Shown one piece after another: positions 4,921 to 43,187 of a DNA stretch of 44,559 nucleotides (the first letter of the stretch is position 1; every line of letters begins with the position of its first letter). A program made the position numbers and the translations under genes. Source of the DNA: Escherichia phage SM_A8; sequence record PP920553.1, one strand, 5' to 3'. The notes under the pieces were generated by a model. That model saw only the letters and a program-made list of their open reading frames with translations, was not told the DNA's origin and made no database searches.

Positions 4921-5032
4921 CCCGTCTGCGGACCCCGACGAAGATTTGATGATTGACGTGAAAAATATGGAATGCGGGGCGAAGCTGAGGGCGCAGGTGT
5001 TGGAGTTGCAGCAAATAATTAAGGGGCCGTAA
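4802..5032 (+). CDS. o-spanin (Rz1-like outer-membrane lipoprotein)
   Basis: RBS AAAGAGG 9 nt upstream; signal peptide with lipobox LSAC, proline-rich mature part; +1 frame overlap with Rz-like gene and extends past it. Confidence 0.55.
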   Translation: MLRALTALIVVLTLSACGSSSVPLMPLTESALRPPCKFDNPSADPDEDLMIDVKNMECGAKLRAQVLELQQIIKGP

Positions 5033-5044
5033 TGGCCCCTTTTC
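5022..5044. terminator. hairpin between convergent genes (bidirectional terminator candidate)
   Basis: AGGGGCC-gtaat-GGCCCCT followed by TTTT; sits between Rz1-like stop (5032) and leftward gene stop (5047). Confidence 0.5.
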
Positions 5045-5046
5045 CG

Positions 5047-5811
5047 TTAGCGAGGAATGCCGCAAATCTCGTTGAGTGTTTTCACATCCAGCGCCACCGC
5101 CGTGGATTTTGGCTTGTCCTGGTAAGGGATGAATTGCTCAACTTCGGGCCATGCCTTGATCAGCTTCTTATCGGTATTGTGTATATCCAGCACGCCGGTA
5201 ACAGTTAGTTTGAACGCGTCATACTTAGCCCGCAACTCACGGCGGGCCTTGTCGTTACGGTCCAGGCGCTTGCAGAAATCGTGGTCCGCAGGGTAGTCTA
5301 TGCGACCGCGCGGAAGATATATCGGCAGCGCTTTCCCGTCCTCGTCGACTTCGCACACTGACGCTAACAAAATTTCCTCATACCCTGGCACAATATCGCC
5401 GAGATCGGGAGACAGTTTATTCATGTATTTATACTCCCAGTATCCGCGATGTACTCGGAATCGGTGTCCGTCTCCGCTCAATGACACGGTACGGACGTTT
5501 CCGCCTGCGTTGATTTCGAAAGTGGCGTCGTAAACGCTGCCTATACCATATGGGTTGTCGGCGTCATGTCTATACGTCGCCTTATTGGTGTACACACAGA
5601 CGCCGTACATCTGCGACGGGTCATAGCCGATTGCTTCAATGCGCTCACGTAGCTCGGCGAACGAATGAATGCCTTCCGGCATACAGTCCAGCGTAATGGC
5701 GTACGCCAGATTTCGAGAGTCCATCATGATTGATTTGGCTTCAGTCGCGATTTCGTGGTCGCGCAGTATGTTAGCCAGAATCTGATTTTTAATGTCTTTC
5801 GTCAGTCTCAT
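5047..5811 (-). CDS. hypothetical protein (leftward insert in structural module)
   Basis: 254-aa ORF, ATG with GAGGA RBS; opposite strand to all flanking structural genes; no motif recognised. Confidence 0.6.
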   Translation of the reverse strand: MRLTKDIKNQILANILRDHEIATEAKSIMMDSRNLAYAITLDCMPEGIHSFAELRERIEAIGYDPSQMYGVCVYTNKATYRHDADNPYGIGSVYDATFEINAGGNVRTVSLSGDGHRFRVHRGYWEYKYMNKLSPDLGDIVPGYEEILLASVCEVDEDGKALPIYLPRGRIDYPADHDFCKRLDRNDKARRELRAKYDAFKLTVTGVLDIHNTDKKLIKAWPEVEQFIPYQDKPKSTAVALDVKTLNEICGIPR

Positions 5812-5851
5812 TTTTATGTCCTCATTTTAGGGGCTTTCGCCCCCGATTGGT

Positions 5852-6166
5852 TTAGTTGAATTTGATGTTGCCACCGGTGGAAGTTAAGCGGGCACATACA
5901 GCTTCAACGGCATCGACGCACATGAAATCGTTAAAGGCTTCGACCAGGGCGTTTATGAAAGATGCCGGAACCAGGCCGCAAGCCGGATTATCGAATGTTG
6001 CGGAGTTGATCGCCGCTTTTGCCGCTTCGGAAGCATTCATGCTCTGGCACAGATTCAGCGCTTCCGCGTTACGCATTGCGTGAAAGGTAAAGGTATTCGC
6101 TACGGTAGTTTTATTGAAACGGGCCATTGCGGCGTCTACTGGAGTTGCTACGGTCATGTTAGTCAT
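5852..6166 (-). CDS. hypothetical protein (leftward insert in structural module)
   Basis: ATG at 6166 with GAAGGAAA RBS (track ORF 5852..6226 starts at an upstream TTG); no motif recognised. Confidence 0.5.
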   Translation of the reverse strand: MTNMTVATPVDAAMARFNKTTVANTFTFHAMRNAEALNLCQSMNASEAAKAAINSATFDNPACGLVPASFINALVEAFNDFMCVDAVEAVCARLTSTGGNIKFN

Positions 6167-6201
6167 TTTGTTTTCCTTCATATCTCTGTTGGTGTGCAAC
6201 C

Positions 6202-6231
6202 AATATAATGCAACCAACATACGCAATGCAA
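6202..6231 (-). promoter_or_regulatory. sigma70-like promoter for leftward two-gene insert
   Basis: minus-sense TTGCAT-N18-TATATT; overlaps two GCAACCAA 8-mers; the 21 nt from the -10 onward are identical to the promoter at 39991-40011. Confidence 0.45.
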
Positions 6232-11771: not shown

Positions 11772-12090
11772 AAGCGGGACAGGCGGGACGTCCCGTTTTG
11801 TCCCGCCTCTGTAAAACTGCATATCTACTCACTTCCACTGCATAAACTCAAAACGGGACAAGCGGGACGTCCCGTTTTGTCACGCCCTGTAAATATGCAT
11901 ACCTATGCAGATTTCGTGCATAAACCAAACGGGACAAAAAGCGGGACAAACAAGGGGCGGGACAAAGCGGGACAGCACCCCAGTCCCGCCAGTGCTGCCG
12001 CGGGGTTTAGCCGATCGGGACAGGCGGGACAAAGCCCAGTCTTTCAGACTAGACGGGGGTCAATGGCCCCCCTCGTCTGAGACTGAATAA
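11772..12090. repeat. GCGGGACA repeat array region, including 173-bp element copy A (11918-12090)
   Basis: at least 10 direct CGGGACA/CGGGACG copies plus inverted GTCCCGCC copies; two ~80-bp tandem units (11772-11917) then a 173-bp element ending in a GC-rich hairpin; colinear copy at 39640-39812. Confidence 0.7.
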
Positions 12091-12153: not shown

Positions 12154-14796
12154 ATGGCAGATCAGGCAGCAGGCATCACGCTAAAGGCTGATGTTGCACA
12201 AATCAGAACGGCAAATACTGTGCTGGACACATTTGCGCAGAAATCAGAGAACACAGAACAGAAAGTAAAGAAATTAAACGACACACTAGGCAAGTCGAAA
12301 AAGGTTACTGGCGACGCCGCGGGTGGAATGGAAAAGTTAGCGACTGAATCGCAGCGCGCCGCCGACGGCATGACGAAACAGGAGCGACTCGCCAGCCGAT
12401 TAGGCATGTCGACCAAAAACCTGGGATTTGCTTCACGGAACGCTGCATTCCAGTTACAGGATATTGCAGTAACGCTTGAGATGGGTATGCCGGTGCACCG
12501 CGTTATGCTTCAGCAGTTACCTCAGCTTACTGGGGCGTTTGGCGGACTGGGTAACACGCTGCGATATGTTGCTGGCTTCCTCGGTCCAGTTGGGATCGGC
12601 CTTGCTGCGGTAACGGCAACGTTAGGCGTGGGCGTAGCAATTACGTCCCGCGCAGAGAACCAGGTCGCAGCGCTTAACAAGACGCTGGCGCTGTCAGGTA
12701 ACATTTCCGGCCTCACCGCTAACCAGATCCTTGTGCTGTCGGAGAACGCCGAGCGTATGGGCGGGTCATTCAGTAAGACGCGTGACACAATCCAGGCGCT
12801 GGCAGCAGCGGGTGTGAAAGCGGGCGCTGACTTCGGCGCGCTGGCGAAAGTGGTGAATGACTTTGCGAAGGCGTCTAATCAGCCGATCTCTGACGTGGTT
12901 GAATCCATCTCAAAATTGTCGAACGACCCGGTCGGGGGACTGCGTGCGCTGGCGGATAAGTATCATGTTGTAACCGAAGCGCAGATCCAGCAGGTGCAAT
13001 CGCTTGTAGATATGGGGCGTGAAACGGACGCGGTTGCTCTGGCTAACAAAACCGCAGCTGCGTCGTTCTCCAGCATGACCAGTGAGATCAAGTCCAACAT
13101 GGGTACGCTCGAGCGGTCGATGAACGTCGTCACATCGGCAGCCAAATCCATGTGGGACGCCATCCTGGATGTAGGACGCGCGCAGTCATCGAATGAGTCC
13201 GAGATGAAAGCGCGTGAGTCCTTGCAGCGCATGACCACGGCTTACTATGCCGAGATGAGAGCGGTAAACGCTGCCGGTGGGGTGATGACCGAAGCGCAGA
13301 AAGCGCGTATTAACATGCTTTACAGCGAACTGGTCGCCCAGGAAAAGGTAGTGGCGTCGCTCACCCTGCGCAACCGTGCCGAGCGAGACAGCGCCCGCGC
13401 CGCGGATGAAGCCGCAAAGGCGAACGAGGAGGCAAACCGCACCGCCCGCGACCGCGCCGCGTTTGAGAAGGAGTACGCAACCAACGCGAAGCGGCGAGCC
13501 GACGAGATAGCCCGCCTCAATTTGCTGAAGAAGCGCGGTGTTATTAACGAGAAAGAACTAGCCGAGGCGGTGAAGCAGGTCAACGAGCGCTACAAAGACC
13601 CCGCACCAAAAAAGGCGGCGGCAGTTCGAGTAGATGCCGGGCTGAAAATGCTGGAGGTCGCGCGAAGCGAACTGGCACAGCTGCGAGAATCAGGCAAGCA
13701 GATCGAAGCCAACGCGTCGACGCAGACCCGATCGCAACGCGCTCAATCAGCACTTAACAAGCTGATCGCAGATCATGAACAGTTAATCGCAGCAAGCAAA
13801 GAAAGAGCGCTAACGGCAGCGGAAAAGCAGCAAATTGCGGGTTTCGAGGAGGTTAAATCGGTACGCGAGCAGATCGTCGAAGAAGCCAAATTGCTGGACG
13901 CGAAAGAGAAGCAGATCAAGGCACATGCCCAGGTCGAGACATTCATCAAGAACCAGAACGCCGAGCTAAAAGCCACCGCGGCGGGCTATGCGCTTTCCAC
14001 TCGCGAAGCGGCTAACCTGCGCGAAGAATTGCAGCTAATTGACCGCCTTCAGCGTGTCGGTGCTAACGATACCGATATCGACAAGGCGGTGTCTAAGCTG
14101 CGCGAAGTGCAGGAAGCACAGACCGGTGCTAACGCCTCGCTATGGGATGGCTTCAGCCGCGGGCTTAAGGATAGCGTTGATGAAATGGGTAACGGCTATA
14201 CGCAGATGACGTCACTCACAAAATTCACGTTCGGCGCTATGCAGGACACGATGAACGAGTTTTTCGAGACTGGCAAGCTGAACGCAAAAGATATGGTTAA
14301 GTCCATTCTGAGCGAATTAATAAAGCTGGCTACCTCGCAGGCGTTCAAGTCCATCGTTAGCGCTTTCGGTGGCGACGGCGGCAAAAACGGATTGTTCGGC
14401 GCTATCTTTTCCGGCCTCACTAAGAATGCGGACGGCGGAGCGTACGCAGGGGGCAATCTTGCGGCCTATTCGGGGCAAGTGGTAAGCCAGCCCACCTTTT
14501 TCAGTTATGGCGTCCAGGCGTTCGCTAAGGGCGCAGGATTGATGGGCGAGGCTGGTCCCGAGGCCATCATGCCGCTGAAGCGCGGGCCGGACGGGAAACT
14601 GGGCGTTGCCGCGTCTGGCGCAGGCGGTGGTATGGTCGTGACGACTAACGTTTACACGGGGACCGGTAAAACGGATACCAGTGTCAGCGGGCCGGATCCC
14701 CGTACCGCGCAGGCGTTCGGCAAGCAAATCACCGAGGCGGTGAAGGCCGAGATCGTGAAGGCGACGAAACCGGGTGGTGTACTTTACAAACGATGA
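12154..14796 (+). CDS. tail tape measure protein
   Basis: 880 aa, long A/E/K/Q-rich helical regions, Gly-rich C-terminal part; sits between chaperone and tip genes. Confidence 0.85.
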   Translation: MADQAAGITLKADVAQIRTANTVLDTFAQKSENTEQKVKKLNDTLGKSKKVTGDAAGGMEKLATESQRAADGMTKQERLASRLGMSTKNLGFASRNAAFQLQDIAVTLEMGMPVHRVMLQQLPQLTGAFGGLGNTLRYVAGFLGPVGIGLAAVTATLGVGVAITSRAENQVAALNKTLALSGNISGLTANQILVLSENAERMGGSFSKTRDTIQALAAAGVKAGADFGALAKVVNDFAKASNQPISDVVESISKLSNDPVGGLRALADKYHVVTEAQIQQVQSLVDMGRETDAVALANKTAAASFSSMTSEIKSNMGTLERSMNVVTSAAKSMWDAILDVGRAQSSNESEMKARESLQRMTTAYYAEMRAVNAAGGVMTEAQKARINMLYSELVAQEKVVASLTLRNRAERDSARAADEAAKANEEANRTARDRAAFEKEYATNAKRRADEIARLNLLKKRGVINEKELAEAVKQVNERYKDPAPKKAAAVRVDAGLKMLEVARSELAQLRESGKQIEANASTQTRSQRAQSALNKLIADHEQLIAASKERALTAAEKQQIAGFEEVKSVREQIVEEAKLLDAKEKQIKAHAQVETFIKNQNAELKATAAGYALSTREAANLREELQLIDRLQRVGANDTDIDKAVSKLREVQEAQTGANASLWDGFSRGLKDSVDEMGNGYTQMTSLTKFTFGAMQDTMNEFFETGKLNAKDMVKSILSELIKLATSQAFKSIVSAFGGDGGKNGLFGAIFSGLTKNADGGAYAGGNLAAYSGQVVSQPTFFSYGVQAFAKGAGLMGEAGPEAIMPLKRGPDGKLGVAASGAGGGMVVTTNVYTGTGKTDTSVSGPDPRTAQAFGKQITEAVKAEIVKATKPGGVLYKR

Positions 14797-16217: not shown

Positions 16218-16958
16218 ATGTTAACGAAAAAGGTTAAAAGCGATATAGCCGCACACGTCGCGGCGTGTCTGCCGGAAGAAGCCTGTGGCCTGGTTGTCAT
16301 GGTGGGTCGTAAGCAAGTGTTCGTCCCATGTCTGAACGTATTCGAAGACCCGACCGGCGTGCGCTCCCGCAAAGACGCTTTTACGATTAGTGATATGGCC
16401 TGGATGGATGCCGAGGATATGGGCGACGTCGTGCGCGTAGTCCACTCACACCCGGGTCAGCGCGAGTTAACCCCCTCACTGGGCGACGTTAACGGATGCA
16501 ACGGCAGCGGCGTAGTGTGGACCATCACTAACGAATATGGCGACTTTATTGAGATTGACCCGGAAGACCCGCCGCTGGTAGGCCGCCGATTTGTTCTCGG
16601 GGTTACTGACTGTTACGGCCTCGTCATGGCATGGCACAAAAAGCAGGGCGTAAACCTGCCAGACTTCCGCGTGCCGTATAACTGGTGGGAGACAGGTGAA
16701 AATCTGTATATGGATAACTGGTACGGCGCGGGCTTCAGGGAATGCGAGGAGAATACGCCGGGGGCGATGGTTATCATGCAGATCAGCGCGCCAGTGCCTA
16801 ACCATGCTGGGATATTCCTTCCGGGCAACCAACTACTACACCATATCTACGGCAGCCTGTCGAGCGTGATACCCTTCCGATCAGGATTTTTCCGGGACAA
16901 TGTGGTTAAATGGGTACGTCATAAAGACCTACCAGGGAATATAACAGAATGGCAATGA
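16218..16958 (+). CDS. tail assembly protein K-like (MPN/JAB + NlpC/P60 domains)
   Basis: HSHPG...SLGD JAB-type metal site and C...H NlpC/P60-like motif (VTDCYGLVMAWH). Confidence 0.7.
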   Translation: MLTKKVKSDIAAHVAACLPEEACGLVVMVGRKQVFVPCLNVFEDPTGVRSRKDAFTISDMAWMDAEDMGDVVRVVHSHPGQRELTPSLGDVNGCNGSGVVWTITNEYGDFIEIDPEDPPLVGRRFVLGVTDCYGLVMAWHKKQGVNLPDFRVPYNWWETGENLYMDNWYGAGFRECEENTPGAMVIMQISAPVPNHAGIFLPGNQLLHHIYGSLSSVIPFRSGFFRDNVVKWVRHKDLPGNITEWQ

Positions 16959-22267: not shown

Positions 22268-22295
22268 ATATTACACCACTCAACCAGGATTGCAA
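22268..22295 (-). promoter_or_regulatory. sigma70-like promoter for the lipoprotein gene
   Basis: minus-sense TTGCAA-N16-TAATAT; the -35 is part of an 8-mer copy (22292-22299). Confidence 0.4.
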
Positions 22296-22316
22296 CCAAT
22301 TTACGAGGATTTAGCT

Positions 22317-24032
22317 ATGGCAGCGGGTACGCTATCAGTAACGAACAACAGCAAGGCGGTAGTAGGGGTCGGCACGACGTTTACCGCGTTTAAAGCTGGC
22401 GACTTCTTAACGCTGGTGGTAGGACAAGTCCCATACACCGTGGCAATCGCGTCCATTGAAAGCGCAACCGCGCTCACGCTGGTGTTGCCGTTCGACGGCC
22501 CAACGGCAACCGGCCTTGCGTGGGATGGCGTTAAGCGCGACACCATGTCACTGGCGACGATGGGCGTTACCGTACAGGCACAAAAAGCATTGCGCTTGAT
22601 GATCGCAGATGAAAACAACTGGCGTGCAATCTTCGGCGACGCTGAAGAAATCACCGTGACGCTACCTAACGGGCAGGTTATGCAGGGAATGTCATGGGGC
22701 TATCTGTCGTCTTTGCTTAAGAACGTAGACCCAGTTGAGATGCGCGACCTGCAACAGCAAGCCGTAACAGCGAAAAACCAGGCAGTTACGGCTAATGGGC
22801 AAGCGGAAGCGGCACGCGACGCTGCCGTAACAGCGAAAAACCAGGCAGTTACGGCTAAGGGGCAAGCGGAAGCGGCACGCGACGCTGCGAACACGGCTAA
22901 GACTGGCGCGGAGGCGGCCCGCAATCAGGCCGAACAATTCGCTAATAGTGTTAATACTGAAAACCTACTTGCGAAGGCCAACAACTTAAGCGATGTTGCG
23001 GATATGGGTGTAACGCGCGAAAACATTGGCGTAGACCGCCTATCGCAAAACATAACCAGCGGCGAAACACAAATCAGGACTGCGGCGAAGAATAAATGGA
23101 TCTTCGTTAAGGAAAATGGCGACTGGGGCGGGTGGGATAATGCCAACAATAAAGCCATGCCGCTGCCGATTGCATTCGGTGGTACGGGGCGCGGCGATAA
23201 CGTCGCCGAGTTCCGCCAATTCAAATCAAACGGCGACACCCAAGATGGGTTAATCATTACGCAGAACGACAACGGATTCGGTGGTGTGGGCTGGGCCGAT
23301 TCCGCGGATAAAGTACGCTGGCGTATGGGCATCGACGAAGCCTCTGGCCATTTTAAAATATACTCATACGACTCCGCGGGAGCGTATCGAGACACCGTCC
23401 TCGAGATCACCGGAGTAGGAGTCGGTGGCATGGTGTGGTCCCGTGATATTACCGTGCGCCCGACGACGGCAGTTCCTGCGCGGTCTTTCGTTCTAAACAA
23501 CGGAAAAGCTACCGTCCCGGCTGGTAACTTCCGCACGATGTGGGATACGGTTAATATCAATAGTAACCAGATCTATAAATATTTTGAGAAGGGAGACGGC
23601 ACTGGCTTTACAGTCAATTGGCCCTCATCTGGTGGTGTTATTGCCCTCCAGGGTACATCAGGAAGGGACTTTAAGAAAGATATTACCGACGCGGACGTTA
23701 CCGAAGCGGTTGCACGCATTGAACAAATGCGCATGGTGCGCTACGTGTATAAGGACGATGTGAAGGAGCGCGTCCGCTTCGGCATCATTGCCGAAGAAGC
23801 AGAAGAGATTGCGCCTCAATACATCAAACACCGTGAGGAGACGTACGATGTGGAGGTGGACCCCGAGACTAACGCCATCGTCGGGGGTAAGACGCGCGAC
23901 CGTCCGTCGGTGGACGTTAACCCTATCGTGATGGACTTGATGGGGTGCGCACAATATGCGATCGCTGAGTGTAAACGCCTGGCGGCGGAAGTGGAGGATT
24001 TGAAAGCCGAGATCGCGGCGTTGAAGAAATAA
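22317..24032 (+). CDS. tail fiber protein with C-terminal intramolecular chaperone (peptidase S74-like) domain
   Basis: ATG 22317 with GAGGA RBS (track start 22290 is TTG); 63-bp tandem repeat at 22761-22886; C-terminus matches the S74 chaperone pattern (RFGIIAEEAEEIAPQYI ... LAAEVEDLKAEIAALKK). Confidence 0.7.
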   Translation: MAAGTLSVTNNSKAVVGVGTTFTAFKAGDFLTLVVGQVPYTVAIASIESATALTLVLPFDGPTATGLAWDGVKRDTMSLATMGVTVQAQKALRLMIADENNWRAIFGDAEEITVTLPNGQVMQGMSWGYLSSLLKNVDPVEMRDLQQQAVTAKNQAVTANGQAEAARDAAVTAKNQAVTAKGQAEAARDAANTAKTGAEAARNQAEQFANSVNTENLLAKANNLSDVADMGVTRENIGVDRLSQNITSGETQIRTAAKNKWIFVKENGDWGGWDNANNKAMPLPIAFGGTGRGDNVAEFRQFKSNGDTQDGLIITQNDNGFGGVGWADSADKVRWRMGIDEASGHFKIYSYDSAGAYRDTVLEITGVGVGGMVWSRDITVRPTTAVPARSFVLNNGKATVPAGNFRTMWDTVNINSNQIYKYFEKGDGTGFTVNWPSSGGVIALQGTSGRDFKKDITDADVTEAVARIEQMRMVRYVYKDDVKERVRFGIIAEEAEEIAPQYIKHREETYDVEVDPETNAIVGGKTRDRPSVDVNPIVMDLMGCAQYAIAECKRLAAEVEDLKAEIAALKK

Positions 24033-25243: not shown

Positions 25244-25273
25244 ACTATAGTGCAACCAACCTGTTGGTTGCAA
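25244..25273 (-). promoter_or_regulatory. sigma70-like promoter overlapped by 22-bp inverted repeat TGCAACCAA-cctg-TTGGTTGCA (operator candidate)
   Basis: minus-sense TTGCAA-N18-TATAGT; perfect 9-bp palindromic arms at 25251-25259 and 25264-25272. Confidence 0.45.
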
Positions 25274-26523: not shown

Positions 26524-26552
26524 AATATAATGCAACCAATATGATTATGCAA
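26524..26552 (-). promoter_or_regulatory. sigma70-like promoter upstream of Dam gene
   Basis: minus-sense TTGCAT-N17-TATATT built from two GCAACCAA copies (26532-26539, 26549-26556). Confidence 0.4.
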
Positions 26553-26557
26553 CCAAT

Positions 26558-29449: not shown

Positions 29450-29489
29450 TTCTAAAATCCTCGGTAGTGCTATCCGGCACACTATACCG

Positions 29490-29768
29490 CTACGCGACCA
29501 ATTCAGCAACCAATAAATCACAGTCGGCTATGTTGTCGATAACGCGAACGTCAGCACCGCGGCGGGCCATTCGCTCGTGCTCACGTACCTGGTGCGGCTT
29601 CGGTTTTCCTCCGGGGCGCTTCACTTCGACGAACACTATTTTGCCGTTGATGATAATAATCAGGTCGGGCGCACCTGCGCGCCCCTCCCATGCCAGTTTT
29701 CGGCAGAATCCGCCTACCTCTTTCACCCGTCGCATCAGGTGATTTTGCACCTTGCCTTCTGGTGTCAT
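29490..29768 (-). CDS. VRR-NUC domain nuclease
   Basis: PD-(D/E)XK pattern: GAPDLIIII ... EVKRPGGK ... Q; ATGA-coupled to upstream HNH gene. Confidence 0.6.
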   Translation of the reverse strand: MTPEGKVQNHLMRRVKEVGGFCRKLAWEGRAGAPDLIIIINGKIVFVEVKRPGGKPKPHQVREHERMARRGADVRVIDNIADCDLLVAELVA

Positions 29769-32951: not shown

Positions 32952-33734
32952 TTAACGGCGGCGACGTTTACGTGGTGCTTCGTCTTCGTCGTCGTCCTCA
33001 TCTTCGTCATCGCGTGGCTTACGACGTTTGCGAGGTTTTTCATCTTCCTCATCGTCGTCGTCATCGCGGCGCTTGGATTTCTTGGACTTGCGCGGCTTGT
33101 CATCTTCATCATCGTCATCACGACGTTTTGACTTTTTGGACTTGCGCGGTGCTTCGTCTTCGTCGTCGTTGTCCAGGTCTTCATCGGAGCAAGAAGACCC
33201 GCCACCTCCGAAGGCTTCGCCGTCTTCACGGAATCGCAGACCCAGCAAGCCAGCACCGAGTCCCTTGCCGTTGGTATTGTTCCACGCCCAAATATCCAGG
33301 GACACATTGCAATAACAACCGGAGTAGATCTCCTGGCCTTCAATCTCGTCGCCGTCGATGGTCAGACCTTGTTCAGTCTGCTTCTCGCCGAGTGACGTTT
33401 GAATGATTGGTTGTTTGAACGATTTGGCGTTGATGTACAACATGCCTTCAAATTCTTCGGTTACTTCGTCACGCTCGTCACCGTCGCGAACTGCGCATTC
33501 CTTAGAATCCTGGGCGTAGTGGCGGTCCATCCACTTATCAGCATTCTTCTCGGATTTCAGCTTGTCGGTGAGCACTGCGCGCGCTGCCGCTTCCACTTTG
33601 TCCACCTGCGGATCTTCTTTATCAAGAAGAATCACTGCACGGTATGCCGGTTTTTGTCCATCCTGTTTAGGGGTATCACGTTCCCAAATTTTAAGGAAAC
33701 ATACGCGCACATTTTTCAGGTTGACTTTAGCCAT
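32952..33734 (-). CDS. hypothetical protein with repetitive charged C-terminal tail (possible ssDNA-binding protein)
   Basis: ATG 33734 with GAGGA RBS; N-terminus MAKVNLKNVRVCF; C-terminal alternating poly-D/E and PRKSKKSKRR blocks from tandem DNA repeats. Confidence 0.5.
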   Translation of the reverse strand: MAKVNLKNVRVCFLKIWERDTPKQDGQKPAYRAVILLDKEDPQVDKVEAAARAVLTDKLKSEKNADKWMDRHYAQDSKECAVRDGDERDEVTEEFEGMLYINAKSFKQPIIQTSLGEKQTEQGLTIDGDEIEGQEIYSGCYCNVSLDIWAWNNTNGKGLGAGLLGLRFREDGEAFGGGGSSCSDEDLDNDDEDEAPRKSKKSKRRDDDDEDDKPRKSKKSKRRDDDDDEEDEKPRKRRKPRDDEDEDDDEDEAPRKRRRR

Positions 33735-33798
33735 TTTCCAATTCCTCATTTTCACATATATCGGGGTTATTATGAGCCACCCCGTTCGGCTTGGTTGC

Positions 33799-33827
33799 TA
33801 ATCTACTTGGTTGCGCCTGATCGGTCA
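33799..33827 (-). promoter_or_regulatory. sigma70-like promoter for SSB-like gene
   Basis: minus-sense TTGACC-N17-TAGATT with GCAACCAA copies in the spacer and just after the -10. Confidence 0.45.
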
Positions 33828-34067
33828 AGCATTTTCATTAAAAAGATTTCTGGTCACGTAGTTGGTAGCGTTCTCGATCCAGCTTAACGGCGGGCGGTCG
33901 ATGTTCTTCTCCACCCAGTCGACGGCAGCGTCACTATATCCGTTGTCAAGCCAGCGGGTCGGATGGCGAATCATCCACGCCACCATTAACACGCCTTGCA
34001 CGCAATGCAGGATAAAGCCCAGCGCTCCGAGCAAAAACATCAATAAGATTGCGAATACTTTATTCAT
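33825..34067 (-). CDS. small membrane protein
   Basis: 80 aa with N-terminal hydrophobic segment AILLMFLLGALGFILHCVQGVLMVAWM. Confidence 0.45.
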   Translation of the reverse strand: MNKVFAILLMFLLGALGFILHCVQGVLMVAWMIRHPTRWLDNGYSDAAVDWVEKNIDRPPLSWIENATNYVTRNLFNENA

Positions 34068-35968: not shown

Positions 35969-36484
35969 TTAATCTTCCAGTTCGAAATAGGTTTCGACGA
36001 TTTCTTTTAGCTCTTTGTGGAAGTCTTCGACGTCGTCATCTTCCAGCTTGGCGATTGATTTGATCTCGAACGATTCCAGCAGGTCGTCGAATTCGTCGTT
36101 CGCGTCATCATCATCACCGCCTGCAATAATAGCGGCATACTGCTTGATTTCGTCGCGCATTTCGACCAGCGGATCGGCATCTTTCTTACCTTTGCCTTTC
36201 GCCGGTGCTTTCTTAGCCTTAGCCGGTTTTTCGTCTTCGGCATCGTCGTCGTCATCTTCTACGACTTCTTTTTTAGCCTTACCTTTCGCCGGTGCTTTTT
36301 TAGATTTAGCCGGTTTTTCGTCTTCAGCTTCATCGTCGTCATCTTCGACAACTTCTTTTTTGGCCTTAGACGGCTTCTTGTCTTCCTGCTTACCAACGGC
36401 AGCGCCAACGGTTTCATAATGCTTTGCAATGGTTTCCAGTGCTACTACGCCGCGAGTGATCAGGTTTACGATTTGCTCAAACAT
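35969..36484 (-). CDS. acidic/lysine-rich repeat protein (first gene of leftward early operon)
   Basis: ATG 36484 with GGAGAT RBS; two 29-aa repeats (KKEVVEDDDDEAEDEKPAKSKKAPAKGKA) from an 87-bp tandem DNA repeat; poly-D C-terminal region. Confidence 0.55.
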   Translation of the reverse strand: MFEQIVNLITRGVVALETIAKHYETVGAAVGKQEDKKPSKAKKEVVEDDDDEAEDEKPAKSKKAPAKGKAKKEVVEDDDDDAEDEKPAKAKKAPAKGKGKKDADPLVEMRDEIKQYAAIIAGGDDDDANDEFDDLLESFEIKSIAKLEDDDVEDFHKELKEIVETYFELED

Positions 36485-36679
36485 GGTATATCTCCGATTG
36501 GTTAAGTTTAGGTGTCGGCAGTTAACTTCGTCGGTGGCCTTAACATATTGCCAGGTTACGCGTTCTCCCGTTCGGGTAGTGGACCTGGTTATATAATCAC
36601 GGTTGGGAATCCTGACACTTCGATCCGGCCCCTGCGTTGCCCCTCTCCAGTTTGCGTCCTGCATCCTGTCGACGGAGTG

Positions 36680-36708
36680 AATATTAGATTGGTTGCAGAA
36701 GGGAGTCA
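36680..36708 (-). promoter_or_regulatory. leftward early promoter (P2)
   Basis: minus-sense TTGACT-N17-TAATAT with a GCAACCAA copy in the spacer; about 190 nt upstream of first leftward gene. Confidence 0.5.
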
Positions 36709-36719
36709 ACAACTAATTT

Positions 36720-36825: not shown

Positions 36826-36854
36826 TTGACACCTTGTGGTTTTAGGTGTAGTTT
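36826..36854 (+). promoter_or_regulatory. rightward promoter for HTH gene and primase
   Basis: TTGACA-N17-TAGTTT about 30 nt upstream of ATG 36886; divergent from P1. Confidence 0.45.
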
Positions 36855-36885
36855 CATTGGTCATTAACCAACAGGAGACTGAATT

Positions 36886-37215
36886 ATGAATATCAAAGAA
36901 GCAATTGAAGTGTTATCTAATGCAATCCGCGGCGAAGCGGGTAAATCCTGGTATTACACAAATGCGGTGGATACTCTGTTATTTGAAGTGTCCAGATTAT
37001 CGCGTGCTGAGAAGGAGCTTACCGCGAAGCTAGAATTGCTCAACGGCACGGCAGCAAGCAAGCTGCAAAAACACAATGAAGAAATGGAAGAATACAAAAA
37101 ACAGGTTATCCGTCTACGTGAGGAAGGTAAATCCTGGGCGATGATCGCCGAGTTGACCGGAATTAATCAGAGCACAGTGCGCTCCTGGGTACGCAATAAT
37201 AAAACTTCAAAGTAA
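36886..37215 (+). CDS. HTH DNA-binding protein (putative transcriptional regulator)
   Basis: 109 aa; C-terminal helix-turn-helix KSWAMIAELTGINQSTVRSWVRN; first gene of rightward operon. Confidence 0.6.
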   Translation: MNIKEAIEVLSNAIRGEAGKSWYYTNAVDTLLFEVSRLSRAEKELTAKLELLNGTAASKLQKHNEEMEEYKKQVIRLREEGKSWAMIAELTGINQSTVRSWVRNNKTSK

Positions 37216-37225
37216 GGCAACGGCA

Positions 37226-39490
37226 ATGAGCTTGATTAAATTCGCTGTAACACGACCCGCTAAAAAAGGCGAAAAAGCCAGGGCGGAAAACTTCCAGATG
37301 ACGACCGAAGAGTTTTTCGAATTTATCAATGATGCGAAAGAAATCTCCTCGGTGCATATCAACAAAACGGAAGATAAAGCGGAGTATGCGCGCCGCAAGC
37401 GTAAGGCTGATGGGATTGTGGCTTATACCAGTGACGGCTTACGCCGCAAGACCAGTGCGGTGGACCGCTCGATCCTGTTCTTCGATATTGACCGTACCGA
37501 CACCCGCACCCTACGCCGCTGCCGTAAGGCTTTCATCGACGCGGGGCTGGAGCACGTATTTCACACCACAACCGGCGACCGCCACCCGCTGAAAGGCGGC
37601 ACGCGTTGCGCTCGTTTCCTGGTGCTCACTGACAAGCCTGTACCGGCGGAAGACCTGGGCCGCGTCCAGTATGCACTATTACACCAACTGGGCCTGTCAG
37701 ATGTGGACTTCGACGATTGCACGAAAGACACAAACCGCCTTATGTACCTGCCTCACCAGCAATCGGTTGTTAAGTGTCACTACGGCAAACGTGCCCGCGT
37801 CCGTCGTCTGCTTCGCCTGGCTGATAAGCTGGGGGTGGAAAAAGAGGAAGTACGCCGCGAGCTTACCCAGGGCGACGACGCAGTGGCAGACGGCATTCTG
37901 GACTGGTGCTTCCAGGCAGGATTCGAACCGCTGTCGTCCGGTCGTGGTTATGAAGTGCCATGCCCGAACGAACACCTGCACAGTGGTGAAGGGTCCACCG
38001 CTATCATGGTTAAGGATGGCGAGATCCGTTTCAAGTGTATGCACACCGGCAACGAGTGTTGCTCGGAACTGAACAGACACCAGCACCTGGCGCTACGTCT
38101 CATCGGGATACCGGACCACCTGAACGTCGAGCCGCACAACATGTCCCGTAAGCAAATCGCCGCCATCCTCCCAGGGCTGGACGACGAGGAAGTCGAATCC
38201 TTATATGAACATATTGTGGATGCGGTTGGCGACGGCGAAGAATACGGCGTGTGCACCGATGCGGATCTGGATAACGAGCCGGTTGCGCTGTTCAGTAAGC
38301 ACGACCCGATCATAGAAGGCCTGGTCAACTTCAAATCGACCTGGTATATGGCTGGCGAGTCGAACATCGGTAAATCGTTCTACGTGCTTGGGCAGATGGG
38401 CGCGGTTGCCGCTGGTATTCCGTTCGGCGGTGCGAAGGTCGTCCAGTCTCATTGCTTCTATTTCGACGCGGAAGGTGGCGAAGCCTCTAACCAGCGCAAA
38501 GAAGCATTGCAGATTAAATATGAGCACGACCTGGACAAGCTGCACATTATAGACCTGCAGTCACGCGGCTGGGATATCACCAGCAAATCAGGCTTGCGCG
38601 AAGTTATCAGCTTTATCAACCGCACCGCTAACGGCGAACCGGTTGGCCTGGTGGCGTTCGACTCACTCAACCAGACTGTTGCGTTGCGGTCCGCGGATGC
38701 TAAACCGTTCGACGAGAACAACGCCAGCGATATGGGTGAAGTGGTCAAAGCGCTGAAGGCCATCGCGGAAAATACAGGTGGCAGTGCGGGCGTCATTCAC
38801 CACCCGGCGAAAGGTGCAAACGGCAGCAGATCCCCCCGCGGGTCCGGCGCGCTGCATGGTGCTGTCGATTCCGCGTTCTTCCTGGAGCAACCGGACGACA
38901 ACCAGCCCGGACAATTGAACCTGTATCATGAGAAGGCACGTAACGGCATTAAGCAAGCGCCGCGCGGCTTCGTCCTGCTCAAGTGCAAGGTTAAGGTGGA
39001 TCTCCGCAAGTCCGAAGCGTTCGAAGCCCACCAGTCCACCAGCACCGGGCCGGACTTCGGCGATGTGGTTGCCGGTTGGGACGTCAAGCCAATTGCCTCC
39101 ACGCCACGCGACGAGACTCTTTACCTCGTACCGGTCGCCCTGGCACCGTTCGCCATCGAACAGGCGAAGGCTGCGGGCAAGGCCGCAGTTAAGGAGGAGA
39201 ACGCCGCAGGCCCGCGCAACGAAAAAGAGAAAGTGCTTTATGCGGCGCTGGAAAAACTGATGGAAGATAACCCGGACCATACCGGATTCAGTAAATCGGC
39301 AATTGTCCGCCAGGCTGGACTAGCGAAAGGTGGCACATCGACGAAGGCAATCGACGATATGGTCGAGCGCGGCGTACTAGGTTTTTACACAGACCCACAC
39401 ACCGGGGCCATCTATGGGTCGTCTAATATCGTCATCAAAACGAATATACCCATCACGCTTTCGGCGACCGATGACGACCTGAAAGATTAA
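37226..39490 (+). CDS. DNA primase / RepA-DnaB-like helicase fusion protein
   Basis: 754 aa; zinc-binding cluster CPNEHLHSGE...CMHTGNECC; Walker A GESNIGKS, Walker B-like LVAFDSLNQ, VIHHPAKG motif. Confidence 0.7.
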   Translation: MSLIKFAVTRPAKKGEKARAENFQMTTEEFFEFINDAKEISSVHINKTEDKAEYARRKRKADGIVAYTSDGLRRKTSAVDRSILFFDIDRTDTRTLRRCRKAFIDAGLEHVFHTTTGDRHPLKGGTRCARFLVLTDKPVPAEDLGRVQYALLHQLGLSDVDFDDCTKDTNRLMYLPHQQSVVKCHYGKRARVRRLLRLADKLGVEKEEVRRELTQGDDAVADGILDWCFQAGFEPLSSGRGYEVPCPNEHLHSGEGSTAIMVKDGEIRFKCMHTGNECCSELNRHQHLALRLIGIPDHLNVEPHNMSRKQIAAILPGLDDEEVESLYEHIVDAVGDGEEYGVCTDADLDNEPVALFSKHDPIIEGLVNFKSTWYMAGESNIGKSFYVLGQMGAVAAGIPFGGAKVVQSHCFYFDAEGGEASNQRKEALQIKYEHDLDKLHIIDLQSRGWDITSKSGLREVISFINRTANGEPVGLVAFDSLNQTVALRSADAKPFDENNASDMGEVVKALKAIAENTGGSAGVIHHPAKGANGSRSPRGSGALHGAVDSAFFLEQPDDNQPGQLNLYHEKARNGIKQAPRGFVLLKCKVKVDLRKSEAFEAHQSTSTGPDFGDVVAGWDVKPIASTPRDETLYLVPVALAPFAIEQAKAAGKAAVKEENAAGPRNEKEKVLYAALEKLMEDNPDHTGFSKSAIVRQAGLAKGGTSTKAIDDMVERGVLGFYTDPHTGAIYGSSNIVIKTNIPITLSATDDDLKD

Positions 39491-39600
39491 TTTGTGCGCG
39501 CATTGGTTGCCGATATGGGAATTCCCATATCGCTAAAAGATTAAATTTTGCGCGCATTGGTTGCCATTTAGGGTGTTTTTATCCCGCCGCATTGGTTGCC
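39484..39600. repeat. iteron-like repeats and perfect 20-bp palindrome downstream of primase (origin-like region)
   Basis: three CGCATTGGTTGCC copies (39499-39511, 39553-39565, 39588-39600), inverted copy at 39872-39884; palindrome GATATGGGAATTCCCATATC at 39512-39531; AT-rich stretch 39601-39650. Confidence 0.5.
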
Positions 39601-39639: not shown

Positions 39640-39812
39640 GCATAAAGTAAGCGGGACAAAAAGCGGGACAAACAAGGGGCGGGACAAAGCGGGACAGCAC
39701 CCCTGTCCCGCCACGGATGGCGCGGCTTCCAGAGGAGCGGGACAGGCGGGACAAACCCCAGTCTTTCAGACTAGACGGGGGTCAGTGGCCCCCCTCGTCT
39801 GAGACTGAATAA
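39640..39812. repeat. 173-bp repeat element copy B with GCGGGACA array and GC-rich hairpin
   Basis: colinear with 11918-12090, no indels; CGGGACA copies at identical offsets (12, 24, 40, 50, 98, 107); central ~26 nt diverged. Confidence 0.7.
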
Positions 39813-39967
39813 AATCCGGGGATTGCAAAATACACGGCAGCATGATGCTAAGTGCGGTCGTCGATGAACTAGGCAACCAATGCGGGTTGTATTATGCTGA
39901 GTGAAAAATGCGGTTTGCAGTTGCAGCAGATAGCGATCAACTTTTTCATGCGCGTGATTAATATTGG

Positions 39968-39996
39968 TTGCGTTCACCCCGGCACCATGCTATATT
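39968..39996 (+). promoter_or_regulatory. rightward early promoter
   Basis: TTGCGT-N17-TATATT; TTGGTTGC copies overlap the -35 and follow the -10; 21-mer TATATTGGTTGCACACCAACA matches the minus strand at 6187-6207. Confidence 0.5.
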
Positions 39997-40024
39997 GGTT
40001 GCACACCAACATGAGGACTGAACA

Positions 40025-40330
40025 ATGAGAGCACTAATCTGGAATTACACAATGGCGGTGGCAAAGCTGTACGAAGCGAAGCACACAAACGGCAACGCAG
40101 ACGACGCGCGCCAGGTTGTCATCCTGGCCCAGCAGGGAATCCTGGACGCGTTCGACGATATGTTTGCCAGCCTGGACGAACTGGAACCGCTGCGCGTGGC
40201 AATCTGCGAATATGCGATGGCATTTGCCCGTGAACGCCTGGCGTATCGCTTCGGGATCGGCGAGACGGCAGTGACAAACGTTGCCCGGATTAAAGCCCAG
40301 CGTGAGCTATTCGCCCAGCTTGCGAAATAA
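40025..40330 (+). CDS. hypothetical early protein
   Basis: 101-aa ORF with GAGGA RBS downstream of promoter. Confidence 0.5.
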   Translation: MRALIWNYTMAVAKLYEAKHTNGNADDARQVVILAQQGILDAFDDMFASLDELEPLRVAICEYAMAFARERLAYRFGIGETAVTNVARIKAQRELFAQLAK

Positions 40331-40339
40331 GAGGCCAAA

Positions 40340-40615
40340 ATGACCCGTAGGCGCGCAAAACAGCTTTCGTGGCATATTCCCCTGCATTGCATACGAATAT
40401 GGGCGGAGAATGCGGTTGAGGGTGAATCGGTATTCTGGTGCTATCGCGACGACGTAAAGCCGTTGACGCAGACTCGCTACTTGCACCAGTTCGCAGCGCA
40501 ACACGATTTCAGGGTGCGGACTTCCTTGCAACCAATGGGAATACGTATTACATTACGCCGGAAGCCCGCCGTTGAGCGGGTAGGCAAACACTGGAGACTG
40601 AGCAAATGTTCTTAG
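40340..40615 (+). CDS. hypothetical early protein
   Basis: 91-aa ORF. Confidence 0.45.
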   Translation: MTRRRAKQLSWHIPLHCIRIWAENAVEGESVFWCYRDDVKPLTQTRYLHQFAAQHDFRVRTSLQPMGIRITLRRKPAVERVGKHWRLSKCS

Positions 40616-40740
40616 ACGGAATATCGCAGGTGTTTATCGACCTGCATATGTGCGTACTTGACTACGAACAAAACGGCATCGCTACGGTATGCGATGGCGA
40701 CTATAAGACTGTTGACGAGATTGAGGAGACTGAGCAATGA
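40606..40740 (+). CDS. small acidic hypothetical protein
   Basis: 44-aa ORF with GGAG RBS, stop overlaps the next ATG (ATGA); not in ORF track. Confidence 0.35.
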   Translation: MFLDGISQVFIDLHMCVLDYEQNGIATVCDGDYKTVDEIEETEQ

Positions 40741-41291: not shown

Positions 41292-41428
41292 GTGCGACGA
41301 TCCGTGATATGCTGATGCATAACCGCTTCGAGATAGGCGGTCGGGTATCTCGCAATTACTTCGTGGCGCGTGCATGGGCGCGCCATATTGGCAAACCGGA
41401 AGGGGCAATTCGATGCTACACGAAATGA
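41288..41428 (+). CDS. small hypothetical protein
   Basis: 46-aa ORF, ATGA-coupled on both sides; not in ORF track. Confidence 0.3.
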   Translation: MSATIRDMLMHNRFEIGGRVSRNYFVARAWARHIGKPEGAIRCYTK

Positions 41429-41700: not shown

Positions 41701-41718
41701 TTATGCAAGCGTGATATA

Positions 41719-41752
41719 GTCCCAGTGAGATAAAACTTACTGGGACTTTTTT
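41719..41752 (+). terminator. intrinsic terminator abutting the holin start codon
   Basis: 8-bp stem GTCCCAGT / ACTGGGAC, 12-nt loop, T6, then ATG 41753. Confidence 0.55.
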
Positions 41753-42763: not shown

Positions 42764-42779
42764 TACGAGGAGACACAGT

Positions 42780-43092: not shown

Positions 43093-43100
43093 ACAATCAA

Positions 43101-43123: not shown

Positions 43124-43187
43124 ATTGCTTGACTCGCAACCAACACAGGGGCCATACTGCAACCAATCAACTGGAGGAGTAATCAAG

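What the first reader, a model, noticed from the sequence alone, without database searches (positions are those of the whole stretch)
6187..6231. Identical 21-nt promoter core shared by two distant, opposite-strand promoters
The 21-mer TATATTGGTTGCACACCAACA occurs on the minus strand at 6187-6207 (promoter of the leftward insert) and on the plus strand at 39991-40011 (rightward early promoter). It covers the -10 hexamer and the first ~15 transcribed nucleotides. Identity of that length suggests a shared regulatory or initial-transcript element, and co-regulation of the insert with early genes.
Basis: seen in the sequence. Interest (0 to 1): 0.45.

Follow-up and report, generated by a model that had tools for sequence, protein, structure and literature searches.

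The report
Shared operator-promoter core of a phage regulon
The identical 21 bases at two promoters of this lytic E. coli phage (a Dhillonvirus) are a -10 box fused to a 15-bp palindromic protein-binding site, the strongest form of a short motif at about a dozen of the phage's promoters; it is probably read by a small phage-encoded DNA-binding protein, so this is an ordinary kind of gene switch that has not been described for this phage group.

Summary
TATATTGGTTGCACACCAACA occurs exactly twice, at 6187-6207(-) and 39991-40011(+), and chance does not explain this. The window is a complete Dhillonvirus (HK578-like) genome.

The 21-mer is not a private feature of two promoters. It holds the genome's most over-represented word, (A)TTGGTTGC(A): 22 copies against about 1.3 expected. 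Most copies lie in promoter regions, in both orientations: at -35, in the spacer, or across -10/+1.

In the 21-mer this word forms a perfect dyad, TTGGT-N5-ACCAA. That dyad occurs only three times in the genome. The third copy (36857-36871) lies just after the -10 of the gene for a 109-aa helix-turn-helix protein found only in Dhillonviruses.

In related genomes sampled without reference to the motif, the element is invariant or nearly so. Spacers, leaders and downstream genes vary around it.

Best reading: a sigma-70 -10 box fused to an operator covering about -8 to +7. It belongs to a genus-wide regulon, probably bound by the HTH protein, which likely represses and autoregulates. Binding is inferred, not shown. 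An RNA-level "initial transcript" role is not supported.

This is a new member of a known kind, of moderate interest.

The parts
6187..6207 (-). 21-mer copy 1: -10 box TATATT (6202-6207) fused to the dyad TTGGTTGCACACCAA (6189-6203), then CA
   Evidence: exact in 12/12 genomes sampled without reference to the motif
39991..40011 (+). 21-mer copy 2: -10 box TATATT (39991-39996) fused to the dyad TTGGTTGCACACCAA (39995-40009), then CA
   Evidence: full dyad in 11/12 genomes, left half in 12/12
36857..36871 (+). Third copy of the dyad TTGGT-N5-ACCAA (TTGGTCATTAACCAA), 2 nt after the -10 of the HTH gene's promoter; proposed autoregulatory operator
   Evidence: exact in 13/14 loci selected by protein
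6210..6231 (-). Upstream part of the leftward promoter: -35 TTGCAT (6226-6231, within the degenerate motif copy TTCGCTTGCAT) and a full motif copy TTGGTTGC (6210-6217) in the spacer next to the -10
39963..39973 (+). Motif copy ATTGGTTGC whose TTGCGT serves as the -35 of the rightward promoter, 17 nt from TATATT
36826..36854 (+). Promoter of the HTH gene: TTGACA - 17 nt - TAGTTT
   Evidence: conserved; HK578 record annotates a promoter at the equivalent place
36886..37215 (+). Candidate regulator: 109-aa protein with a hypervariable N-terminus, a long helix and an invariant C-terminal helix-turn-helix; first gene of the operon with the helicase-primase
   Evidence: Pfam HTH_23, Sigma70_r4_2 and HTH_28 above cut-off; alignments; AF2 model pLDDT 88.9; Foldseek; found only in Dhillonviruses
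5047..6166 (-). Cargo of the leftward promoter: a 104-aa unknown protein (5852-6166) and an Nmad5-domain protein (5047-5811), ending at terminator-like hairpin 5021-5041
   Evidence: cargo differs in SO-1, bob, HK578 and CHD5UKE2
40025..40330 (+). First gene downstream of the rightward promoter (101 aa, unknown function); replaced by other genes in SO-1, HK578 and jat
22268..22299 (-). Promoter of the leftward lipoprotein / superinfection-exclusion gene: motif supplies the -35 (TTGCAA - 16 nt - TAATAT)
25244..25273 (-). Promoter TTGCAA - 18 nt - TATAGT containing the inverted motif pair GCAACCAAcaggTTGGTTGC
26524..26557 (-). Promoter with two direct motif copies: the first is the -35 (TTGCAT - 17 nt - TATATT), the second lies next to the -10
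29481..29514 (-). Promoter with the motif as -35 (TTGCTG - 17 nt - TATAGT) plus a degenerate copy TTGGTCGC
33791..33828 (-). Promoter TTGACC - 17 nt - TAGATT with reverse-oriented motif copies in the spacer and just after the -10
36681..36709 (-). Leftward promoter TTGACT - 17 nt - TAATAT with a reverse-oriented motif copy (36689-36696) in the spacer
   Evidence: HK578 record annotates the equivalent promoter
43129..43166 (+). Promoter TTGACT - 18 nt - CATACT with reverse-oriented motif copies right after the -35 and right after the -10
39499..39600 (+). Three direct copies of the longer motif form CGCATTGGTTGCC (39499, 39553, 39588) downstream of the helicase-primase gene
39872..39885 (-). 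Inverted copy of CCGCATTGGTTGCC; together with the three direct copies it brackets the GCGGGACA repeat cluster

Best explanation
Each 21-mer is a sigma-70 -10 hexamer (TATATT) fused to a 15-bp dyad operator, TTGGT-TGCAC-ACCAA. The operator spans roughly -8 to +7 of its promoter.

The dyad is the strongest, two-half-site form of an asymmetric 8-10 bp site, A-TTGGTTGC-a. That site marks about a dozen non-late promoters and control regions of Dhillonviruses. It also brackets an origin-like repeat region.

The most likely reader is the 109-aa helix-turn-helix protein encoded at 36886-37215. It is made from a consensus-like promoter. I propose that it binds the dyads as a dimer through its long helix. 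At the three dyad promoters (its own, the Nmad5 cassette, and the 40025 operon) it would block RNA polymerase. It would also occupy the single sites in other promoters, at the -35, in the spacer or at +1, and so turn those transcription units down together. Where the site coincides with a weak -35 it might instead help them.

Shown here: the sequence anatomy, the statistical enrichment, the conservation, and the existence and genus-restriction of the HTH protein. Inferred: that this protein binds the site, and the sign of regulation.
For: - Enrichment: TTGGTTGC occurs 22 times against about 1.3 expected, and it is the top 8-, 9- and 10-mer in the genome. The same holds in HK578 and CHD5UKE2, with 19-22 copies per genome at conserved positions.
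- Location: in JLBYU60 as annotated, 10/19 copies lie in the 6% of the genome that is intergenic (P = 5e-8).
- Not merely a -35 element: only 4-6 of 22 copies have a good -10 at 16-18 nt. Other copies lie in spacers or at +1 of promoters that have canonical TTGACx -35 boxes, in reverse orientation.
- The exact dyad TTGGT-N5-ACCAA occurs 3 times against about 0.04 expected. Each copy is at or just after a -10 and 14-23 nt before a start codon.
- Conservation in samples taken without reference to the motif: leftward 21-mer 12/12; rightward dyad 11/12, with left half 12/12; spacers, leaders and downstream genes vary. The dyad at the HTH gene's promoter is exact in 13/14 loci.
- A third N-terminal variant of the HTH gene (L059) has a different promoter, but it again carries a motif copy just downstream of the -10.
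- The HTH protein passes Pfam cut-offs for three HTH families. Its recognition helix is invariant across all variants while the N-terminus is hypervariable.
- The AF2 model is a long helix plus a tri-helical HTH. The HTH superposes at 0.6-1.6 A on DNA-bound HTH domains of resolvases, LuxR/NarL and DeoR.
- The protein and the motif are both restricted to Dhillonviruses. A Kagunavirus that shares the replication genes lacks the HTH-109 protein and shows no enrichment of the motif (2 copies).
Against: - No binding or transcription data exist, and no transcription start has been mapped.
- The HTH domain and the motif are both invariant, so no covariation test is possible. Co-restriction to the genus would hold equally for any other Dhillonvirus-specific protein.
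- HK578-type genomes keep all motif sites but have no motif copy at their HTH gene's promoter.
- Site spacing and orientation are irregular: direct repeats 12-54 bp apart, one tail-to-tail pair, and three head-to-head dyads. A single rigid dimer geometry cannot explain this.
- One genome (Pubbukkers) has lost the right half of the rightward dyad, so the dyad is not indispensable.
- A second protein with a weak N-terminal HTH signal exists at 43330-44472.
- The sign of regulation is a guess from site positions alone.
Confidence: 0.5

Rival explanations
1. Promoter-family element read by host RNA polymerase alone. ATTGGTTGCA would be an extended -35 and TTGGTTGCAC a discriminator / initial region selected for promoter strength. 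The 21-mer identity would then reflect convergent or copied strong promoters, with no dedicated phage factor.
For: Four to six copies sit exactly as a -35 (TTGCnn) 16-18 nt before a good -10, above the 3.7% background. The promoters look workable for sigma-70 on their own.
Against: Sixteen of 22 copies are not in -35 position. Reverse-oriented copies sit in the spacer or at +1 of promoters that already have TTGACx -35 boxes. Four copies bracket a non-promoter repeat region. The right half of the dyad (ACCAACA) is conserved without any known RNA polymerase contact.
Confidence: 0.15
2. Replication-related binding sites. The motif would be the recognition site of an origin-binding or helicase-loading protein, possibly the same HTH protein, which is co-transcribed with the helicase-primase. 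Promoter overlap would be secondary, as with iteron-plasmid Rep proteins that bind direct repeats at the origin and an inverted repeat at their own promoter.
For: Site density is highest (6 copies in about 500 bp) right after the helicase-primase gene. Three direct copies and one inverted copy of CGCATTGGTTGCC bracket an AT-rich stretch plus GCGGGACA repeats. The SO-1 record flags this as a special repeat region. There is a dyad at the HTH gene's own promoter.
Against: Most copies are dispersed at promoters across 37 kb, including two antisense cassettes inside the late region. The second GCGGGACA cluster (11774-12031) has no TTGGTTGC copies. No origin has been mapped.
Confidence: 0.12
3. A host transcription factor or nucleoid protein binds the motif, and the phage exploits it.
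For: None directly. It is not excluded because host genomes could not be scanned for so short a site with these tools.
Against: From memory, no E. coli regulator has this consensus (not tested). A related E. coli phage, the Kagunavirus fFiEco03, shows no enrichment.
Confidence: 0.06
4. RNA-level element in the 5' leader: a shared leader sequence or hairpin controlling stability or translation.
For: ACCAACA precedes the Shine-Dalgarno sequence at all three dyad promoters.
Against: Leader folds are -1.9 kcal/mol with z about 0. There is no Rfam family. The left arm lies upstream of the predicted +1. The stem sequence is identical in the third dyad while its loop differs, so there is no covariation.
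Confidence: 0.04
5. A recent duplication or gene conversion with no selected function.
For: Identical repeats can arise by recombination between promoters.
Against: The flanks are unrelated. The element is invariant across genomes that differ by 5-15% around it and carry different downstream genes.
Confidence: 0.02

Closest known systems
Phage P1 C1 repressor and its dispersed asymmetric operators (from established knowledge, not tested here)
   Same: A short asymmetric site is scattered over the genome at many promoters, in either orientation. Some copies are paired into incomplete palindromes that overlap core promoters, and the regulator's own expression is under the same control.
   Different: P1 is temperate and C1 is its immunity repressor. 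This phage has no integrase or lysogeny module in the annotated relatives. The site is 8-10 bp rather than 17 bp. The protein is a small long-helix + HTH protein with no detected homology to C1.
Mycobacteriophage L5 gp71 'stoperators' (from established knowledge)
   Same: About 20-30 copies of an asymmetric site, mostly intergenic, recognised by one small HTH protein.
   Different: Stoperators are oriented with transcription and block elongation. Here orientation is mixed and most copies overlap core promoter elements. This phage is a lytic type.
Lambda/P22/434-type dyad operators overlapping promoters
   Same: A dyad with half-sites about 10 bp centre to centre covers -10/+1, and there is a copy at the regulator's own promoter.
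   Different: There is no tandem OR1-3 arrangement or divergent switch. Most sites are single half-sites. There is no Cro/cI-like protein family match.
T4 MotA box / middle promoters (sigma appropriation)
   Same: At 4-6 promoters the motif replaces a canonical -35 in front of a good -10. The candidate protein's HTH scores as sigma-70 region-4-like.
   Different: The site is centred at about -35.5 rather than -30. Most copies are elsewhere in the promoter or in reverse orientation. No AsiA-like partner was identified, and there is no homology to MotA.
Iteron-plasmid Rep proteins (direct repeats at the origin, inverted repeat at the rep promoter)
   Same: Both direct and inverted arrangements of one site occur. 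The regulator gene is adjacent to the replicative helicase-primase. Sites flank an origin-like repeat region.
   Different: Sites occur at many unrelated promoters. No winged-helix Rep fold is present. The GCGGGACA repeats, not TTGGTTGC, are the tandem iteron-like units.

Membership tests
Sigma-70 promoter | -35-like and -10-like hexamers 16-18 nt apart, upstream of a gene | tested here: met
   6226-6231 TTGCAT - 18 nt - 6202-6207 TATATT; 39968-39973 TTGCGT - 17 nt - 39991-39996 TATATT with TG
Sigma-70 promoter | Mapped transcription start downstream of the -10 | not testable with these tools
   No TSS or RNA-seq data for Dhillonviruses were found
Dyad operator of a dimeric HTH regulator | Inverted repeat with half-sites about one helical turn apart | tested here: met
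   TTGGT-N5-ACCAA, centre to centre 10 bp; 3 exact copies against about 0.04 expected
Dyad operator of a dimeric HTH regulator | Overlap with core promoter elements | tested here: met
   All three dyads overlap or directly follow a -10
Dyad operator of a dimeric HTH regulator | Cognate DNA-binding protein encoded by the same genome, with a site at its own promoter | tested here: inconclusive
   The HTH protein at 36886-37215 has a dyad at its promoter in 13/14 loci and a motif copy in a third promoter variant, but none in HK578-type genomes. No binding data exist.
Dyad operator of a dimeric HTH regulator | Demonstrated protein-DNA binding | not testable with these tools
   Needs EMSA, footprinting or ChIP
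Dispersed asymmetric operators (P1 C1 type) | Many copies of an asymmetric site at promoters across the genome, in either orientation | tested here: met
   22 copies, information content confined to about 10 bp, both orientations
Dispersed asymmetric operators (P1 C1 type) | Belongs to the immunity system of a temperate phage | tested here: not met
   No integrase or lysogeny genes in the annotated relatives; the genus is described as lytic in the literature seen
L5-type stoperators | Site orientation correlated with the direction of transcription | tested here: not met
   Forward and reverse copies are mixed relative to local transcription
T4 MotA-type middle promoter | Activator box replaces the -35 at a fixed distance from the -10 in all members | tested here: not met
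   Only 4-6 of 22 copies are in -35 position
Known RNA family or structured leader | Rfam match or a fold better than shuffled sequence | tested here: not met
   No Rfam hits; z about 0 and +1.3 for the two 21-mer leaders
Sigma factor (for the 109-aa protein) | Regions 2 and 4 both present | tested here: not met
   Only a region-4-like HTH matches (Pfam Sigma70_r4_2 residues 65-103; NCBIfam hits far below cut-off). The rest of the model is one long helix.
Gam / transposase / resolvase (database names of the 109-aa protein) | Gam domain, or a catalytic recombinase/transposase domain | tested here: not met
   Only HTH families match. Foldseek superposes only the HTH on the resolvase/IstA DNA-binding domains.

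The most novel reading that the evidence does not exclude
One small protein with a sigma-region-4-like HTH acts as the master timer of a strictly lytic siphovirus. In this reading it binds as a monomer to about 20 asymmetric sites and as a dimer to three dyads. It would then do three jobs at once: shut off its own and two other transcription units at +1, substitute for or compete with sigma region 4 at TTGCAx -35 sites, and organise the origin-like region next to the helicase-primase gene. That combines the monomer/dimer logic of iteron-plasmid Rep proteins with global transcription control. Its hypervariable N-terminus would reflect an arms race with the host.
Probability: 0.12. Interest if true: 0.7.

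Novelty: new member of a known kind. Interest (0 to 1): 0.38.

Why it matters
Dhillonviruses are widely used as models. BASEL collection members and SECphi18 appeared among the relatives found here, and the genus features in anti-defence and phage-engineering work. I found no description of their transcriptional programme.

A single 8-10 bp site shared by about a dozen promoters, together with a candidate regulator, gives a testable map of the non-late regulon. It also explains why accessory cassettes with different cargo keep the same promoter. One such cassette carries nmad5, which has been reported as the trigger of the Tmn defence system (PMC11846954). Finally, the conserved promoter/operator could serve as a ready-made part for engineering these phages.

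The work also corrects a database annotation: the regulator candidate is labelled Gam, transposase or resolvase in public records without domain support.

Tried and rejected
- Literature searches for the sequence words TTGGTTGC and GCAACCAA returned only primer lists. Searches on Dhillonvirus, HK578 or SO-1 with promoter, regulator or repeat terms found no description of the motif.
- RNA explanations were rejected: no Rfam hits and no significant leader folding.
- The '-35 element only' idea was rejected by geometry.
- The 380-aa protein at 43330-44472 (weak N-terminal HTH plus metallophosphoesterase) was considered as the binder. It was put aside because a 74%-identical homologue exists in the Kagunavirus fFiEco03, whose genome shows no motif enrichment.
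- I looked for an analogous promoter-linked word in that Kagunavirus. Its enriched words are in coding sequence.
- Sigma-54 (-24/-12) geometry and the consensus sites of CytR, NtrC, MarA, FNR/CRP and PhoB were compared by eye from memory. None fits; this was not a formal test.
- Searches for distant homologues with a diverged recognition helix, which would have allowed a covariation test, found only Dhillonvirus contigs with the same helix.
- IMG/VR loci L006-L031 were fetched by exact match to the 18-mer, so they are biased for conservation. They were not used for the conservation counts. L009 and L012 are chance matches in coding sequence of unrelated contigs.

Full report
**What the window is**

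The window is a complete genome of a Dhillonvirus, an HK578-like lytic siphovirus of E. coli. It is collinear with, and about 92-96% identical to, phage JLBYU60 and more than 150 other records.

The gene order is: terminase to tail genes rightward (23-24032), a leftward replication/modification block (36664 down to 24059), and a rightward block. The rightward block starts with a small gene and the helicase-primase (36886-39490). It continues with small unknown genes, the lysis genes and a phosphoesterase (40025-44472).

**Check of the observation**

TATATTGGTTGCACACCAACA is present exactly at 6187-6207(-) and 39991-40011(+). There are no other matches even with three mismatches, and no shuffle reaches two matches.

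Both copies sit in promoter-like settings:
- Leftward: TTGCAT - 18 nt - TATATT, then a start codon at 6166.
- Rightward: TTGCGT - 17 nt - TG-n-TATATT, then a start codon at 40025.

With +1 about 7 nt after the -10 (about A6195 and A40003), the 21-mer covers the -10, the discriminator and about 9 transcribed bases. Outside the 21-mer and the TTGC of the -35, the two promoters are unrelated.

**What the 21-mer contains**

The 21-mer contains TTGGTTGC. This is the most over-represented 8-mer of the genome, with 22 copies against about 1.3 expected. ATTGGTTGC and ATTGGTTGCA are the top 9- and 10-mers. Information content is confined to about 10 bp: A at -1, the 8-bp core, and a preference for A after it.

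Nineteen of the 22 copies lie in control regions. The other three (13484, 16832, 40535) are inside genes. In JLBYU60 as annotated, 10 of 19 copies fall in the 6% of the genome that is intergenic (P = 5e-8). Several 'coding' copies there lie only within over-extended or doubtful small ORF calls.

HK578, SO-1, bob, JLBYU60 and CHD5UKE2 each have 19-22 copies at the same map positions.

**Where the motif sits in promoters**

In four promoters the motif supplies the -35 hexamer (TTGCnn) 16-17 nt before a good -10. These are at 22299, 26556, 29513 and 39964. Two further cases are weaker.

In other promoters the motif lies elsewhere:
- Next to the -10, inside the spacer: 6217, 26539, 25259.
- Across -10/+1: the two 21-mers.

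Three promoters already have canonical -35 boxes:
- TTGACT - 17 nt - TAATAT at 36709(-).
- TTGACC - 17 nt - TAGATT at 33828(-).
- TTGACT - 18 nt - CATACT at 43129(+).

In these three the motif occurs in reverse orientation, in the spacer. In the promoters at 33828 and 43129 there is a second reverse copy just after the -10.

The opposite strand of the reverse copies offers no usable -10. A site found at several positions and in both orientations inside core promoters behaves like an operator, not like a polymerase recognition element.

**The dyad**

In the 21-mer the motif is part of a perfect dyad, TTGGT-TGCAC-ACCAA. The exact pattern TTGGT-N5-ACCAA occurs three times in the genome and at no other spacing from 0 to 15. 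One tail-to-tail pair, ACCAA-N4-TTGGT, occurs at 25255. From base composition I expect about 0.04 copies.

The third copy, TTGGTCATTAACCAA at 36857-36871, lies 2 nt after the -10 of a consensus-like promoter (TTGACA - 17 nt - TAGTTT). It ends 14 nt before the ATG of the gene at 36886-37215. In the window, all three dyads are followed by CA, a Shine-Dalgarno sequence and a start codon.

**Conservation**

Loci L006-L031 were fetched by exact match to the 18-mer, so they are biased. I therefore used only genomes fetched by flanking similarity or by protein.

- The leftward 21-mer is exact in 12/12 genomes. The spacer between the -35 and the middle motif varies. The leader and first gene differ in SO-1, bob and HK578.
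- The rightward dyad is exact in 11/12 and its left half in 12/12. Pubbukkers has lost the right half together with a replaced leader.
- At the rightward promoter the -10 alternates between TATATT and TAGATT, and 10 or more of the 17 spacer columns vary.
- The dyad at the 36886 gene is exact in 13/14 loci selected by protein, including its CATTA centre. Its flanks vary.
- In IMG/VR the 18-mer occurs only in contigs of about 42-45 kb, apart from two matches consistent with chance.

The result goes the other way: the element is kept.

**The candidate reader**

Of the roughly 30 small or unknown proteins scanned, only the 109-aa product of 36886-37215 passes Pfam cut-offs for DNA-binding domains. 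It matches HTH_23, Sigma70_r4_2 and HTH_28 over residues 65-106.

Public records call this protein Gam, transposase or resolvase. No such domain is present.

The AF2 model (pLDDT 88.9) has a short helix, one 59-residue helix and a C-terminal HTH. Foldseek superposes only the HTH, at 0.6-1.6 A, on DNA-bound domains of Sin/Tn3 resolvase, LuxR/NarL-type regulators, DeoR and IstA.

Across all variants the N-terminal 45 residues are hypervariable. The central LELLNGTAA segment and the recognition helix (INxSTxRxW) are invariant. This fits the invariance of the DNA motif.

The protein family is found only in Dhillonviruses.

The Kagunavirus fFiEco03 shares the replication genes and has a 74%-identical copy of the other HTH-like protein (43330-44472). 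It lacks the 109-aa protein and has only 2 copies of TTGGTTGC.

A third N-terminal variant of the gene (L059) has a different promoter (TTGCAC - 17 nt - TATATT), but it again carries a motif copy just downstream. HK578-type genomes have no motif at this promoter. That weakens a strict autoregulation model.

**Mechanism proposed**

The 21-mer is a -10 box fused to an operator spanning about -8 to +7. Occupancy there would exclude RNA polymerase or block open-complex formation.

The HTH protein would be made early from its strong promoter. It would then repress its own operon and turn down the Nmad5 cassette and the 40025 operon. It would also occupy the single sites in about nine further promoters. 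Where the site coincides with a weak -35, activation cannot be excluded.

Repression late in infection would make sense for the two antisense cassettes embedded in the late region (6200 and 22299), because it would avoid head-on transcription.

Established here: the anatomy, enrichment, conservation, and the existence and distribution of the protein. Inferred: the protein-site pairing (about 50% confidence) and the sign of regulation.

**Rival explanations**

- A polymerase-only promoter element does not explain the reverse copies or the copies outside the -35.
- A replication role is suggested by three direct copies and one inverted copy of the longer form CGCATTGGTTGCC. These bracket an AT-rich stretch and a cluster of GCGGGACA repeats right after the helicase-primase gene. 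This may be an additional role rather than an alternative.
- A host factor cannot be excluded, but nothing points to one.
- An RNA leader element is not supported.
- A neutral duplication is contradicted by the conservation.

**Context of the cargo**

The leftward unit carries a 104-aa unknown protein and an Nmad5-domain protein (Pfam 2.8e-55). It ends at a terminator-like hairpin.

In other Dhillonviruses the same promoter drives different genes. It therefore behaves as a fixed expression socket for accessory genes. nmad5 of Dhillonviruses has been reported as the trigger of the Tmn defence system (PMC11846954).

**Novelty and score**

Operators overlapping promoters and dispersed asymmetric operator sets are well known (lambda, P1 C1, L5 gp71). 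I found no description of this motif, its regulon or the regulator candidate for Dhillonviruses. The HK578 record annotates only three consensus promoters. The SO-1 record annotates only repeat regions A and B.

I rate it a new member of a known kind, with interest 0.38.

Noticed in passing
window 11774-12031 and 39651-39753: Two clusters of an iteron-like repeat, GCGGGACA(A/G): 14 exact copies in the genome, 13 of them in these two clusters, plus one-mismatch copies. They correspond to 'region A' and 'region B' of the SO-1 record. One cluster lies between the tail chaperone and tape-measure genes, the other after the helicase-primase gene. They could be an origin, a late-activator site or a packaging signal; this is unresolved.
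   Followed up: partly
window 39482-39600 and 39872-39885: A longer form of the motif, CGCATTGGTTGCC. The first two copies sit in a 30-nt repeat, AAAGATTAA(A/T)TT(T/G)TGCGCGCATTGGTTGCC. It occurs three times in direct orientation and once inverted, bracketing the iteron cluster.
   Followed up: partly
window 36886-37215: The 109-aa HTH protein is named 'DNA recombination nuclease inhibitor gamma', 'transposase' or 'resolvase' in public records, but only an HTH domain is detectable. Its N-terminal 45 residues come in at least three unrelated versions on an invariant C-terminus.
   Followed up: yes
window 5047-5811 (-): The second gene of the leftward cassette is an Nmad5-domain protein (Pfam PF18757, 2.8e-55). 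The Dhillonvirus nmad5 gene has been reported as the trigger of the Tmn defence system.
   Followed up: partly
window 42844-43069: A perfect 111-bp tandem duplication (2.0 copies, 100% identical) lies just after the endolysin gene. It creates a 98-aa ORF with an exactly repeated 37-residue block. This could be a recent duplication or an assembly artefact.
   Followed up: no
window 43330-44472: The 380-aa metallophosphoesterase has an N-terminal stretch with weak, sub-threshold HTH matches (GerE, HTH_28). Homologues are widespread in Kagunavirus, Jerseyvirus, T1-like and Webervirus phages, and the SO-1 record notes 'putative transcriptional regulator'.
   Followed up: partly
whole window; also L032 (Kagunavirus): The words ACGGCAAC/GTTGCCGT and ACGGCAGC/GCTGCCGT are 14-18-fold over-represented (24-29 copies) in both the Dhillonviruses and the Kagunavirus, apparently within coding sequence. 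The cause was not examined; it could be codon or peptide bias, or a Chi-like signal.
   Followed up: no
window 22761-22888, 33044-33169, 36180-36368: Further tandem repeats lie inside genes: 63 bp x2 in the tail fibre gene, 54 bp x2.3 in the ssDNA-binding-like gene, and 87 bp x2.2 in the first leftward gene, 35969-36664.
   Followed up: no
window 40528-40536 (-), 13477-13485 (-), 16825-16833 (-): Three motif copies lie inside genes on the antisense strand and are conserved in other genomes. Whether they are functional (roadblock or antisense control) or are kept only by coding constraint is unknown.
   Followed up: no
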